Below the pieces are notes generated by a model. It saw nothing but the letters and a program-made list of their open reading frames with translations, made no database searches and was not told where the DNA came from. From a virus: 33,431 nt of DNA. Shown one piece after another: positions 31,686 to 31,919 of this stretch. The stretch is from the IMG/VR virus record IMGVR_UViG_3300035698_024751; one strand, written 5' to 3'. The position numbers and the translations under genes are program-made. Position 1 is the stretch's first letter; each line of letters starts with the position of its first letter.

Positions 31686-31777
31686 TGAAATCGGATTGCT
31701 CTTCCACTGAGCTACTCGCCCGTATTTTTGTGTTACGGTCTGGAGGGCGAGACGGGATTCGGACCCGTGACCATCCG
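31686..31777 (-). tRNA. Split/permuted tRNA-like element. The 3' half (31741-31777: CGGAT-GGTC-ACGGG-TCCGAAT-CCCGT-CTCGCCC-T-CCA) lies upstream of its perfectly matching 5' half (31686-31721: GGGCGAG-TA-GCTC-AGTGGAA-GAGC-A-ATCCG-AUUUCA), separated by 19 nt. Inferred anticodon UUC (Glu-type)
   Basis: Acceptor stems match 7/7 (GGGCGAG/CTCGCCC). Anticodon stems match 5/5 (ATCCG/CGGAT). Encoded CCA. A degenerate second 5'-half-like copy (GGGCAAGTAGATCC, 31798-31811) lies upstream of the 3' half. Confidence 0.45.
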
Positions 31778-31919
31778 GCGTAGGCAATGCAACATTTGGA
31801 TCTACTTGCCCAATTCTATGCTGTAGAGTCACAACTGAAGCTACCGCTAATACCCCGCCATGCTTATGTGCCATAAAGCACTATGGCGGTTATAAGACTG
31901 AAGCTGAAGCTGTCTCTAT

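What the first reader, a model, noticed from the sequence alone, without database searches (positions are those of the whole stretch)
31686..31811. Permuted/split tRNA-like gene: intact 3' half placed upstream of its matching 5' half
On the minus strand a canonical tRNA 3' half runs from the 3' anticodon-stem strand (CGGAT) through the T-arm and 3' acceptor strand (CTCGCCC) to an encoded discriminator-CCA. Nineteen nucleotides later comes a canonical 5' half: acceptor GGGCGAG, a D-arm GCTCAGTGGAAGAGC, 5' anticodon stem ATCCG and loop start AUUUCA. The two halves pair perfectly with each other (7/7 acceptor, 5/5 anticodon stem) and would give an anticodon UUC (Glu) if joined. A degenerate extra copy of the 5' half (GGGCAAGTAGATCC...) precedes the 3' half. 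This is the arrangement of circularly permuted tRNA genes known from a red alga and a few archaea, which are processed through a circular intermediate. The alternatives are a tandem-duplication and decay relic, or an att-site-like tRNA fragment array. The mature anticodon-loop junction and any bulge-helix-bulge motif could not be confirmed by eye.
Basis: seen in the sequence. Interest (0 to 1): 0.8.

Follow-up and report, generated by a model that had tools for sequence, protein, structure and literature searches.

The report
Phage Y-RNA-like tRNA mimic
The "scrambled tRNA" is real, but it is a conserved non-coding RNA that imitates the body of a tRNA (a YrlA/Y-RNA-like mimic), one of a large and apparently undescribed set always encoded just after a phage protein of unknown function (DUF7873), and not a gene for a working tRNA.

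Summary
On the minus strand a T-arm, an acceptor 3' strand and UCCA are followed, 19 nt later, by the matching acceptor 5' strand and a D-arm.

It is not a permuted tRNA gene. The anticodon-like stem opens into two more helices made by the 5' and 3' flanks. There is no bulge-helix-bulge motif, and relatives show no anticodon-loop signature.

Rfam's only match is YrlA, the bacterial Y-RNA-like tRNA mimic: full length, 37.8 bits, below the gathering score.

The gene just upstream is Pfam DUF7873. In 78 of 88 DUF7873 loci from very different phages, a covariance model built without the window finds the same RNA within 1 kb downstream. The window itself scores 59.5 bits. In 60 distinct sequences 20 of 21 base pairs covary, and the tRNA 15:48 tertiary pair covaries as well.

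No Ro60/TROVE gene is linked. About half of the RNAs encode N-CCA after the acceptor strand. This suggests RNase P opens the acceptor loop, as shown for Mycobacterium smegmatis YrlA.

Verdict: a new variant of a known kind, a Ro60-unlinked, DUF7873-linked family of YrlA-like tRNA mimics. Its function is unknown.

The parts
31656..31802 (-). Whole tRNA-mimic RNA (RNA-2, type B), about 147 nt: a rod of two outer helices, an anticodon-like stem and a permuted tRNA-like body.
   Evidence: MFE and centroid fold. Model R1 match at 31676-31791, 59.5 bits. Rfam YrlA match at 31672-31788, 37.8 bits.
31797..31802 (-). Outer helix O2, 5' strand GAUCCA. It pairs with UGGAUC at 31656-31661.
   Evidence: Fold. 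L085 and L088 have a helix at the same place with unrelated sequence (read).
31656..31661 (-). Outer helix O2, 3' strand UGGAUC.
31784..31793 (-). Helix O1, 5' strand GUUGCAUUGC. It pairs with GCGAUGUGGU at 31670-31679.
   Evidence: Fold. Two compensatory pairs (U-A to C-G, C-G to U-A) against L085 and L088 (alignment). Family-wide, flanks pair best with their own partner.
31670..31679 (-). Helix O1, 3' strand GCGAUGUGGU.
31680..31691 (-). Conserved 3' side of the asymmetric internal loop, AUUUCAGCUUGA. It holds the 'anticodon loop' AUUUCAG of the finding. It aligns with YrlA ..cUuGucG.. and with AGACU/UUAAACG in relatives.
   Evidence: Rfam alignment. Alignment with L085, L088 and L089. Family listing.
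31778..31783 (-). 5' side of the internal loop, CUACGC. This is where YrlA carries its Ro60-binding motif GNCGAAN0-1G. The motif is degenerate here.
   Evidence: Rfam alignment. Motif definition from PMC4201824.
31773..31777 (-). Anticodon-like stem, 5' strand CGGAU. It pairs with AUCCG at 31692-31696.
   Evidence: All 5 pairs covary in 60 distinct relatives, 91.6% paired.
31692..31696 (-). Anticodon-like stem, 3' strand AUCCG.
31769..31772 (-). Variable region GGUC. Its last base is C48, the partner of G15.
   Evidence: The 15:48 pair covaries in the family: 42 A:U, 33 G:C, 2 other.
31752..31768 (-). T-arm ACGGG/UCCGAAU/CCCGU. It has C where tRNAs have U55.
   Evidence: Among the distinct relatives tallied, the listed T-loops all read UUC[GA]A.
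31745..31751 (-). Acceptor 3' strand CUCGCCC.
   Evidence: The acceptor helix is 100% paired and all 7 pairs covary.
31741..31744 (-). Encoded discriminator U plus CCA.
   Evidence: N-CCA is encoded at this place in 26 of 54 type B and 7 of 23 type A relatives. L088 shares UCCAGACC.
31722..31740 (-). Remainder of the acceptor loop, the 19-nt spacer. It is probably removed or opened by processing.
   Evidence: Loop length varies from 4 to 89 nt among relatives. Removal is inferred.
31715..31721 (-). Acceptor 5' strand GGGCGAG. The predicted RNase P cut is 5' of G31721.
   Evidence: Pairing. The cut is inferred from M. smegmatis YrlA (PMC4201824).
31698..31714 (-). U8 A9 and the D-arm GCUC/AGUGGAA/GAGC, with A14, G15 and G18 G19.
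31920..32693 (-). DUF7873 gene (257 aa) directly upstream on the same strand. It is the only protein conserved next to this RNA family.
   Evidence: Pfam PF25283, E = 3e-50. Synteny. No other conserved neighbour.
31824..31918 (-). RNA-1: a second structured element between DUF7873 and the mimic. CAGCUUCAG repeats surround a hairpin. It is probably the counterpart of the 'type A' RNA of relatives with its tRNA-like part lost.
   Evidence: Fold z = -2.56. Conserved with L085 and L088. The homology to type A is inferred from shared repeat motifs.
31567..31642 (-). Genuine tRNA (anticodon CGA) 13 nt downstream of the mimic. Its RNase P cut would help to free the 3' side of the mimic.
   Evidence: ARAGORN and Rfam. 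The processing role is inferred.
31537..31566 (-). GC-rich hairpin GGGGCCGGUUCA..UGAACCGGCCCC followed by a U-rich tract. It is the probable end of the transcription unit.
   Evidence: Sequence. It was not called by the strict terminator scan. L085 and L088 have clear hairpin-plus-U-run terminators after their RNA.
31798..31811 (-). GGGCAAGUAGAUCC, the 'degenerate extra 5' half'. It is the spacer plus the start of helix O2.
   Evidence: 11 of 14 positions match the true 5' half. In L085 and L088 the same spacer keeps ..AGUA.. but does not resemble their own acceptor strands.

Best explanation
The element is a non-coding tRNA mimic of the YrlA (bacterial Y-RNA-like) type.

Shown:
- One RNA of about 147 nt folds into a tRNA-like body: T-arm, 7-bp acceptor-like helix closed by a loop, D-arm, variable region and the 15:48 tertiary pair.
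- Its anticodon-like stem has no loop. It continues into an internal loop and two helices formed by the RNA's 5' and 3' ends.
- It belongs to a large family. One or two such RNAs lie immediately downstream of, and on the same strand as, the phage gene DUF7873, often inside tRNA gene clusters.

Inferred:
1. It is transcribed together with DUF7873, RNA-1 and the downstream tRNA.
2. DUF7873 is its protein partner. It would take the place that Ro60/Rsr holds for classical Y RNAs and bind the conserved internal loop and stem.
3. Host RNase P cuts 5' of G31721, and 3' trimming stops at the encoded CCA (A31741). That leaves a nicked two-piece RNA with a free tRNA-like acceptor end, as shown experimentally for M. 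smegmatis YrlA.
4. The particle presents an anticodon-less tRNA look-alike to proteins that recognise the tRNA elbow or acceptor end. It could act as an adaptor or as a decoy in tRNA processing, repair or defence during infection.

My probabilities:
- Member of this tRNA-mimic RNA family and not a tRNA gene: about 0.9.
- DUF7873 is the direct partner: about 0.55.
- The acceptor loop of this copy is opened: about 0.5.
- The adaptor or decoy role: speculative.
For: - Rfam's only non-tRNA match is YrlA, full length, E = 4e-6.
- YrlA hits of 31-33 bits lie just downstream of DUF7873 in Gordonia phage Ziko and Arthrobacter phage Racecar.
- A pairing scan finds a permuted element within 900 nt downstream in 62 of 83 loci, and only 5 hits elsewhere.
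- Model R1, built without the window, hits 78 of 88 loci within 1 kb downstream. Thirty-seven loci have two hits, and the window scores 59.5 bits.
- In the complete Ziko genome the only two R1 hits with E below 0.01 follow DUF7873.
- Covariation in 60 distinct sequences: 96.9% of cells paired against 61% in shuffles and 39-49% when the partners are slid; 20 of 21 pairs show double changes.
- The Levitt pair 15:48 covaries 42 A:U to 33 G:C. Chen et al. reported the same for YrlA.
- Flanks pair with their own partner at -22.4 kcal/mol against -14.8 for mismatched partners, p = 6e-19.
- Helix O1 shows compensatory changes in the closest relatives.
- N-CCA is encoded in 33 of 77 RNAs, against about 1 in 64 by chance. 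The -1 base is U in 34 of 54 type B RNAs.
- No other protein is conserved within 3 kb.
- No TROVE domain is found in the window, in recurrent neighbours or in Ziko.
- M. smegmatis YrlA, with a 7-bp acceptor, is cut by RNase P and gains CCA in vivo (PMC4201824).
Against: - The Rfam YrlA score (37.8) is far below the gathering score (69).
- The Ro60-binding motif GNCGAAN0-1G is degenerate in this copy, and YrlA's middle stem is missing.
- Partnership with DUF7873 rests on gene order alone.
- The AlphaFold model of DUF7873 (pLDDT 88) has no convincing match to any RNA-binding or other fold.
- This copy has C, not U, at -1 and C at T-loop position 55. It may therefore be a poorer substrate for RNase P and TruB.
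- Many relatives carry AUCGA(A/C)C, which resembles the CGAA Ro60 site. A host Ro60 could be the real partner.
- No expression data exist.
Confidence: 0.7

Rival explanations
1. It is a classical Ro60-dependent Y RNA. The RNA binds a Ro60/Rsr protein of the host, or one encoded elsewhere in the phage. DUF7873 is an unrelated or accessory neighbour.
For: - The best database match is YrlA.
- Many relatives carry AUCGA(A/C)C next to a stem, like the CGAA motif bound by Ro60.
- Some phages do encode Ro60 with Y-RNA-like RNAs.
Against: - No TROVE protein is found in the 33-kb window, in the recurrent neighbours, or among the unassigned proteins of at least 270 aa in the complete Ziko genome.
- DUF7873 is the only conserved neighbour across hosts from Actinobacteria to Proteobacteria and Cyanobacteria.
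- The motif is degenerate in the window copy.
Confidence: 0.17
2. It is a functional circularly permuted tRNA-Glu gene. Leader and trailer are joined and the acceptor spacer is removed, giving a mature tRNA(UUC).
For: - The halves pair perfectly.
- The in-silico joined molecule is called tRNA-Glu(UUC) by ARAGORN.
- CCA is encoded.
Against: - There is no bulge-helix-bulge motif at the junction.
- The family shows no U33/R37 signature and no anticodon-like diversity.
- The flanks form conserved helices and motifs.
- Relatives are phages of bacteria, which lack the splicing endonuclease (established knowledge).
- The T-loop has C55.
Confidence: 0.02
3. It is a relic of a tandem tRNA duplication that is decaying, or a chance junction of two tRNA genes.
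For: - An upstream stretch matches the 5' half at 11 of 14 positions.
- Junctions of dimeric tRNAs do score with YrlA-type models. Here they reach at most 38 bits.
Against: - No tRNA is called on either side of the junction within 31656-31811.
- The same architecture with strong covariation recurs in 78 of 88 loci whose proteins are only about 30% identical.
- The window scores 59.5 bits, well above the dimeric-tRNA hits.
Confidence: 0.02
4. It is an array of tRNA fragments left by integration, that is, an attP/attB duplication.
For: tRNA genes are common integration targets (established knowledge).
Against: - No integrase domain is found in the proteins scanned.
- The element is conserved as a folded RNA with compensatory changes, at a fixed place after DUF7873, in lytic-type phage genomes.
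Confidence: 0.01
5. It is the acceptor piece of a two-piece (permuted) tmRNA.
For: - The gene order is the same as in permuted tmRNA genes: T-arm, acceptor 3' strand and CCA upstream of the acceptor 5' strand.
- There is a weak Rfam hit to tmRNA_permuted (13.9 bits).
Against: - ARAGORN finds no tmRNA.
- The Rfam score is far below the gathering score of 47.
- There is no tag reading frame and there are no pseudoknots.
- A full D-arm is present.
Confidence: 0.01

Closest known systems
YrlA (Rfam RF02553), the tRNA-like bacterial Y RNAs bound by Ro60/Rsr (Chen et al. 2014, PMC4201824; Wang et al. 2018, bioRxiv 10.1101/312249)
   Same: - The order of elements is the same: 5' strand of a long stem, anticodon-like stem, variable region, T-arm, acceptor-like stem-loop, D-arm, then back down the stem.
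- The tRNA tertiary signature is the same, including 15:48 covariation.
- It occurs in phages, often as two tandem RNAs next to a protein gene.
- The M. smegmatis member has a 7-bp acceptor, is cut by RNase P and carries CCA.
   Different: - It is not next to a Ro60/TROVE gene. It is next to DUF7873.
- It scores below Rfam's gathering score, 37.8 against 69. None of 20 relatives' loci reaches that score either.
- This copy lacks YrlA's middle stem and a recognisable GNCGAAN0-1G motif.
- CCA is encoded in the gene in about 43% of members, not added afterwards.
Circularly permuted tRNA genes of Cyanidioschyzon merolae and a few other algae and archaea (from my own knowledge and the reviews listed)
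   Same: - The 3' half lies upstream of the 5' half.
- The acceptor strands are separated by a spacer that RNase P and 3' processing would remove.
- The joined sequence makes a perfect cloverleaf.
   Different: - There is no bulge-helix-bulge junction and no conserved anticodon loop.
- The flanks are conserved and extend the stem.
- The hosts are bacteria, which lack the splicing endonuclease.
- The element is a stable mimic, not a precursor of a decoding tRNA.
Two-piece (permuted) tmRNA of alpha-proteobacteria and cyanobacteria (Rfam RF04321)
   Same: - The gene is permuted.
- An encoded CCA lies upstream of the acceptor 5' strand.
- Processing inside the intervening loop gives two base-paired pieces.
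   Different: - There is no tag reading frame and there are no pseudoknots.
- A complete D-arm is present.
- The Rfam score is only 13.9 bits.
Phage Ro60 with Y-RNA-like RNAs (Thermus phage phiLo phiRo60 with Yrl1 and Yrl2, PMC12135203)
   Same: A phage-encoded protein gene lies next to two small structured RNAs that have a 5'-3' stem and a CGAA-type bulge.
   Different: - The protein there is a true Ro60 ring (HEAT repeats plus a vWA domain).
- Here it is a 250-aa protein with no detectable similarity to Ro60.

Membership tests
YrlA / Y-RNA-like (RF02553) | A tRNA-like module in permuted order (T-arm, closed acceptor-like stem-loop, D-arm) held by an anticodon-like stem. | tested here: met
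   Rfam alignment, fold, and covariation of all four helices in 60 distinct relatives.
YrlA / Y-RNA-like (RF02553) | The tRNA tertiary signature: A14, G18 G19, T-loop, and a covarying 15:48 Levitt pair. | tested here: met
   15:48 is A:U in 42, G:C in 33 and other in 2; nt 14 is A in 75 of 77. The window has A14, G15:C48 and G18 G19. The exception is C at position 55.
YrlA / Y-RNA-like (RF02553) | A Ro60-binding module with the 5'-strand motif GNCGAAN0-1G. | tested here: not met
   The window has GCCUACG at the aligned place. Many relatives have AUCGA(A/C)C, a partial match. Motif definition.
YrlA / Y-RNA-like (RF02553) | The RNA is encoded next to an rsr (Ro60, TROVE domain) gene. | tested here: not met
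   No TROVE domain in 20 window proteins, including all of 400 aa or more. None in recurrent neighbours or in Ziko.
YrlA / Y-RNA-like (RF02553) | The Rfam gathering score of 69 bits. | tested here: not met
   37.8 bits in the window, 31-33 bits in Ziko and Racecar, and no YrlA hit at the gathering score in 20 relatives' loci.
YrlA / Y-RNA-like (RF02553) | The RNA is physically bound by Ro60/Rsr. | not testable with these tools
   This needs immunoprecipitation or a gel-shift assay.
Circularly permuted tRNA gene | The 3' half lies upstream of the 5' half, with complementary acceptor and anticodon-stem strands. | tested here: met
Circularly permuted tRNA gene | A bulge-helix-bulge motif is formed by leader and trailer at the junction. 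| tested here: not met
   The exhaustive scan found one arrangement, not at the junction, against 1.7 expected in shuffles. The fold shows a one-sided 6-nt bulge.
Circularly permuted tRNA gene | Joining restores a 7-nt anticodon loop with U33 and a purine at 37, conserved among homologues. | tested here: not met
   The window alone would give AUUUCAG. In the family, U is found at +2 in only 24 of 54 type B and 6 of 23 type A RNAs.
Circularly permuted tRNA gene | A circular intermediate and a mature joined tRNA exist. | not testable with these tools
   This needs RNA sequencing.
Canonical tRNA gene | A contiguous cloverleaf is recognised by tRNA finders. | tested here: not met
   ARAGORN and the Rfam tRNA model call nothing between 31656 and 31811, even at E up to 10.
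Two-piece tmRNA (RF04321) | A tag reading frame and pseudoknots, plus detection by tmRNA finders. | tested here: not met
   ARAGORN finds no tmRNA. Rfam gives 13.9 bits against a gathering score of 47.

The most novel reading that the evidence does not exclude
DUF7873 and its one or two tRNA mimics form a Ro60-independent ribonucleoprotein that is widespread in phages.

In this reading the acceptor loop is opened by RNase P, which exposes a genuine N-CCA end on an anticodon-less tRNA body. That end would then do one of two things:
- It is aminoacylated by synthetases that ignore the anticodon. Type A RNAs carry a tRNA-Leu-like D-arm and A73.
- It soaks up host defence enzymes that attack tRNA acceptor ends.

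The module would then be a new class of phage counter-defence or translation-related particle.
Probability: 0.25. Interest if true: 0.8.

Novelty: new variant of a known kind. Interest (0 to 1): 0.6.

Why it matters
Y RNAs and their tRNA-like YrlA relatives have been defined by their partnership with Ro60. Here the same RNA architecture is tied to a different, uncharacterised protein.

The link holds in about 90% of 88 sampled loci. These come from phages of Actinobacteria, Proteobacteria and Cyanobacteria. The protein family has about 2,700 clusters at 50% identity, and all 74 GenBank phage copies are annotated 'hypothetical' or not annotated at all.

The consequences are:
- It gives DUF7873 a first functional handle: it is RNA-linked and sits in tRNA gene clusters.
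- It adds a family of structured RNAs that Rfam 15 does not capture.
- It flags likely false protein annotations. Ziko gp126 lies on the RNAs.
- The frequently encoded CCA and the U at -1 make a concrete prediction. These mimics should be nicked by RNase P into two-piece tRNA look-alikes. Until now that was known only for M. smegmatis YrlA.
- It warns that apparent 'permuted tRNA genes' in phage and bacterial DNA should be tested against this family first.

Tried and rejected
- Nucleotide search of GenBank phages with the region found only a 51-nt match of the neighbouring true tRNA.
- Exact-protein look-up of the upstream ORF and a close-relative scan of viral contigs found nothing.
- The vault idea was rejected. 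The major vault protein homologue lies 750 nt downstream, which suggested a vault-RNA-like role. Its homologues in the huge phages LR756500 and LR756501 have no such RNA or tRNA within 10 kb. The window's closest DUF7873 relatives have no MVP nearby.
- The supplementary tables of Chen et al. 2014, which list phages, are not held.
- A literature search for DUF7873 or PF25283 returned no papers.
- A MAFFT alignment of 21 RNAs misplaced the anticodon-like strand where the variable region differs in length. I therefore built the model from 10 RNAs with a 4-nt variable region.
- Folding energy is not a useful discriminator here (z about -1).
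Full report
**1. The observation**

On the minus strand the sequence reads as follows:
- CGGAU, GGUC, then the T-arm ACGGG/UCCGAAU/CCCGU.
- CUCGCCC, UCCA, then 19 nt.
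- GGGCGAG, UA, then the D-arm GCUC/AGUGGAA/GAGC.
- A, AUCCG, AUUUCAG.

The coordinates are those given in the finding. The acceptor pairs 7/7 and the anticodon-like stem 5/5. The upstream GGGCAAGUAGAUCC matches the true 5' half at 11 of 14 positions.

ARAGORN and the Rfam tRNA model call two ordinary tRNAs nearby, at 31567-31642 and 33281-33354. They call nothing on this element. When the two halves are joined in silico, ARAGORN calls a 74-nt tRNA-Glu(UUC).

**2. What the databases say**

A permissive Rfam scan gives one relevant match. It is YrlA (RF02553, 'Y RNA-like'), full length over 31672-31788 on the minus strand, at 37.8 bits and E = 4e-6. The gathering score is 69.

The alignment places the T-arm, the acceptor-like stem and the D-arm on the model. 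The acceptor loop has 24 nt where the model has 2. YrlA's middle stem is deleted.

YrlA RNAs are the bacterial Y RNAs whose effector domain mimics tRNA. They were found next to Ro60 (Rsr) genes in more than 250 bacteria and phages (PMC4201824). [quoted passage not shown] Mycobacterium smegmatis YrlA has a 7-bp acceptor. It is cut by RNase P and acquires CCA in vivo, which gives two halves.

**3. Fold of the window RNA**

The minimum-energy and centroid structures of 31652-31806 agree. They contain these elements:
- Helix O2: GAUCCA (31802-31797) with UGGAUC (31661-31656).
- A small A-rich internal loop.
- Helix O1: GUUGCAUUGC (31793-31784) with GCGAUGUGGU (31679-31670).
- An asymmetric internal loop: CUACGC against AUUUCAGCUUGA.
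- The 5-bp anticodon-like stem.
- A junction bearing the T-arm, the 7-bp acceptor helix with a 23-nt loop, and the D-arm.

The 'anticodon loop' of the finding is thus one side of an internal loop. The 'degenerate extra 5' half' is the spacer plus the first bases of helix O2. The energy z-scores are unremarkable (-1.0 and -1.3).

**4. Context**

All genes in this part of the window are on the minus strand. The order is:
- tRNA-Met.
- A 147-aa ORF.
- A 257-aa protein matching Pfam DUF7873 (E = 3e-50).
- A structured spacer, RNA-1.
- The tRNA mimic.
- A tRNA with anticodon CGA.
- A GC-rich hairpin.
- Two small ORFs.
- An 817-aa major vault protein homologue.

None of the 20 window proteins scanned has a TROVE/Ro60 domain. 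That set includes every ORF of 400 aa or more.

**5. The link to DUF7873**

DUF7873 homologues occur in 74 GenBank phage records. The hosts are Vibrio, Gordonia, Rhizobium, Klebsiella/Serratia, Arthrobacter, Ralstonia, Rhodococcus and cyanobacteria. Every annotated copy is called 'hypothetical protein'; the other records carry no annotation.

In Gordonia phage Ziko and Arthrobacter phage Racecar, Rfam gives weak YrlA hits immediately downstream of the DUF7873 gene. This is the same synteny as in the window. I then fetched 80 DUF7873 loci from IMG/VR and five loci of the window's closest relatives, at 41-50% identity.

A simple scan asked for a T-arm, a 7-nt strand, its complement within 100 nt, a D-arm and an anticodon-like stem. 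It finds such an element within 900 nt downstream, on the same strand, in 62 of 83 loci. It finds only 5 elsewhere in those loci.

Many of these loci contain no tRNA gene at all. The elements are therefore not junctions of tandem tRNAs.

All-against-all clustering of flanking ORFs shows no other protein conserved within 3 kb. The few recurrent neighbours have no TROVE domain.

The complete 68.9-kb Ziko genome has no TROVE protein among its unassigned CDS of 270 aa or more. Its only two matches to my model with E below 0.01 sit right after DUF7873. One of them lies on the annotated 'hypothetical protein' gp126.

The protein family is large. It has 2,704 clusters at 50% identity. The 150 best-scoring representatives are all stand-alone proteins of about 240-270 aa.

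**6. Statistical and covariation support**

I built covariance model R1 from ten RNAs of distant loci, with the window left out. Its results are:
- The window element scores 59.5 bits with E about 9e-17, and it is the only hit in the window.
- 78 of 88 DUF7873 loci have a hit within 1 kb downstream.
- Three of the ten misses have fewer than 130 nt of downstream sequence.
- 37 loci have two hits.
- The remaining hits are mostly junctions of adjacent tRNAs. They score at most 38 bits, the artefact Chen et al. warned about.

I then counted pairs on the alignment of the 68 best hits, which are 60 distinct sequences:
- 96.9% of cells form standard pairs, against 61% in shuffles and 39-49% when the partners are slid.
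- 20 of 21 pairs show changes on both sides.
- The acceptor helix is 100% paired, and all seven of its pairs covary.
- The alignment is fitted to the model, which favours pairing.

The tertiary Levitt pair covaries almost perfectly: 42 A15:U48, 33 G15:C48 and 2 exceptions. Nucleotide 14 is A in 75 of the 77. This is the hallmark reported for YrlA.

The 5' and 3' flanks pair far better with their own partner than with flanks of other loci. The means are -22.4 and -14.8 kcal/mol, p = 6e-19.

In the window's own subgroup, helix O1 shows two compensatory pairs. Helix O2 is kept with unrelated sequences.

**7. Family anatomy**

Relatives usually carry two tandem RNAs.
- 'Type A' has a 3-bp D-stem with the D-arm GCC/CAAnUGGUAGA/GGC, discriminator A, and flanks rich in CAGAUUCA repeats.
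- 'Type B' has the D-arm GCUY/AGUGGCA/GAGC and mostly discriminator U.
- In type B the flanks read AUCGA(A/C)C-stem ... AGACU ... stem-cUUAAACG, with a further outer helix.

The window RNA is type B. Like its closest relatives it lacks the middle stem. It keeps the 3' loop as AUUUCAGCUUGA, which reads AUUUCAGCUUAAACG in L085.

The window's RNA-1 (31824-31918, fold z = -2.56) is conserved with L085 and L088. It has CAGCUUCAG repeats around a plain hairpin. It looks like a type A RNA that has lost its tRNA-like part. This is an inference.

**8. Processing**

N-CCA directly follows the acceptor 3' strand in 26 of 54 type B and 7 of 23 type A RNAs. About 1 in 64 is expected by chance. The base before the acceptor 5' strand is U in 34 of 54 type B RNAs.

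From established knowledge of bacterial RNase P, a 7-bp acceptor stacked on a T-arm, a 3' RCCA and U at -1 are its preferred substrate features. Together with the M. smegmatis precedent, this makes it likely that many members are nicked into two base-paired pieces with a free CCA end.

The window copy has UCCA and a 7-bp helix, but C at -1 and C at T-loop position 55. I put nicking of this copy at about 0.5.

**9. Why it is not a permuted tRNA gene**

- An exhaustive search for a bulge-helix-bulge arrangement between leader and trailer finds one. It is away from the junction, against 1.7 expected in shuffled sequences.
- The fold shows a one-sided 6-nt bulge instead.
- Across the family, the bases following the anticodon-like stem have no U33/R37 signature and no anticodon-like variety.
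- Those bases carry conserved motifs instead.
- The relatives infect bacteria, which have no tRNA splicing endonuclease (established knowledge).
- The decay-relic and att-site alternatives are excluded by the conservation and covariation described above.

**10. What DUF7873 might be**

The AlphaFold2 model is confident (pLDDT 88, pTM 0.77). It has no convincing structural neighbour in the PDB or BFVD and no sequence-profile match to solved structures. In particular it shows no similarity to the Ro60 ring.

Its partnership with the RNA is inferred from strict gene order alone. A rival reading is that the RNAs bind a host Ro60, because many type B RNAs keep a CGAA-like motif.

**11. Verdict**

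The element is a new variant of a known kind. It is a YrlA-like tRNA mimic that fails three membership criteria of YrlA: the Ro60 neighbour, the Ro60-binding motif and the Rfam threshold. It works like YrlA structurally. It belongs to a large DUF7873-linked phage family that neither Rfam 15 nor the searchable literature describes.

Its biological role remains inferred.

Noticed in passing
window 28469-30922 (-): An 817-aa homologue of the eukaryotic major vault protein (Pfam MVP_shoulder 2.6e-24, Vault_3 1.5e-12, Vault_2 weak). It is 46-47% identical to proteins of the 462-kb and 735-kb 'huge phage' genomes LR756500 and LR756501. Viral MVPs have so far been reported only in a 2023 preprint (10.1101/2023.11.10.566534). 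Its closeness to a Y-RNA-like RNA is intriguing because vaults use a TROVE protein and a small RNA. The linkage is not conserved in relatives.
   Followed up: partly
window 31824-31918 (-): A second structured RNA (RNA-1) lies between DUF7873 and the tRNA mimic. CAGCUUCAG repeats flank a hairpin, and the fold z-score is -2.56. It is conserved with L085 and L088. It may be a 'type A' RNA that has lost its tRNA-like domain.
   Followed up: partly
window 31567-31642 (-): The neighbouring tRNA has anticodon CGA (serine codon UCG) but a short 5-nt variable region and an A1-C72 mismatch. It is therefore not built like a bacterial tRNA-Ser. Its T-arm half is 84% identical to tRNA-Glu genes of T5-like phages. 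Its amino-acid identity is unclear.
   Followed up: no
L091 11389-11598 (Gordonia phage Ziko gp126; record 61389-61598): The annotated 'hypothetical protein' gp126 lies on the two tRNA-mimic RNAs downstream of the DUF7873 gene gp124 (R1 hits at 11389-11484 and 11532-11661). It is probably a false protein call.
   Followed up: partly
type A RNAs, e.g. L010 3744-3805, L016 3732-3806, L046 3844-3923, L067 3738-3799: Many first-copy RNAs have the D-arm GCG/GAAUGGUAGA/CGC and discriminator A. From memory these resemble E. coli tRNA-Leu, whose synthetase does not read the anticodon. Several also encode ACCA. This raises the question of whether the mimics can be charged.
   Followed up: no
L026 2252-2854 and four other loci (cluster 7): A small stand-alone von Willebrand A-domain protein sits just upstream of DUF7873 in five loci. 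Ro60 itself ends in a vWA domain. AAA/STAND-type ATPases also recur near DUF7873 (L076, L088) and elsewhere in the Ziko genome (gp51, about 40 kb from DUF7873).
   Followed up: no
window 31741-31748 and L088 about 1176-1190: The first eight bases of the acceptor loop, UCCAGACC, are identical in the window and in L088, although the acceptor stems differ. Something beyond CCA may be recognised there.
   Followed up: no
window 31757-31763 (-): The T-loop reads UCCGAAU, with C at the position of the universal U55 (pseudouridine). The T-loops tallied for the distinct relatives all read UUC[GA]A.
   Followed up: no
window 20209-21231 (-), 25908-27728 (-), 25376-25921 (-): Auxiliary genes that are unusual for a phage: an adenosine deaminase (E = 2e-49), a family-2 glycosyltransferase fused to TPR repeats, and a weak methyltransferase match. 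Most large ORFs of the window have no Pfam match at all.
   Followed up: no
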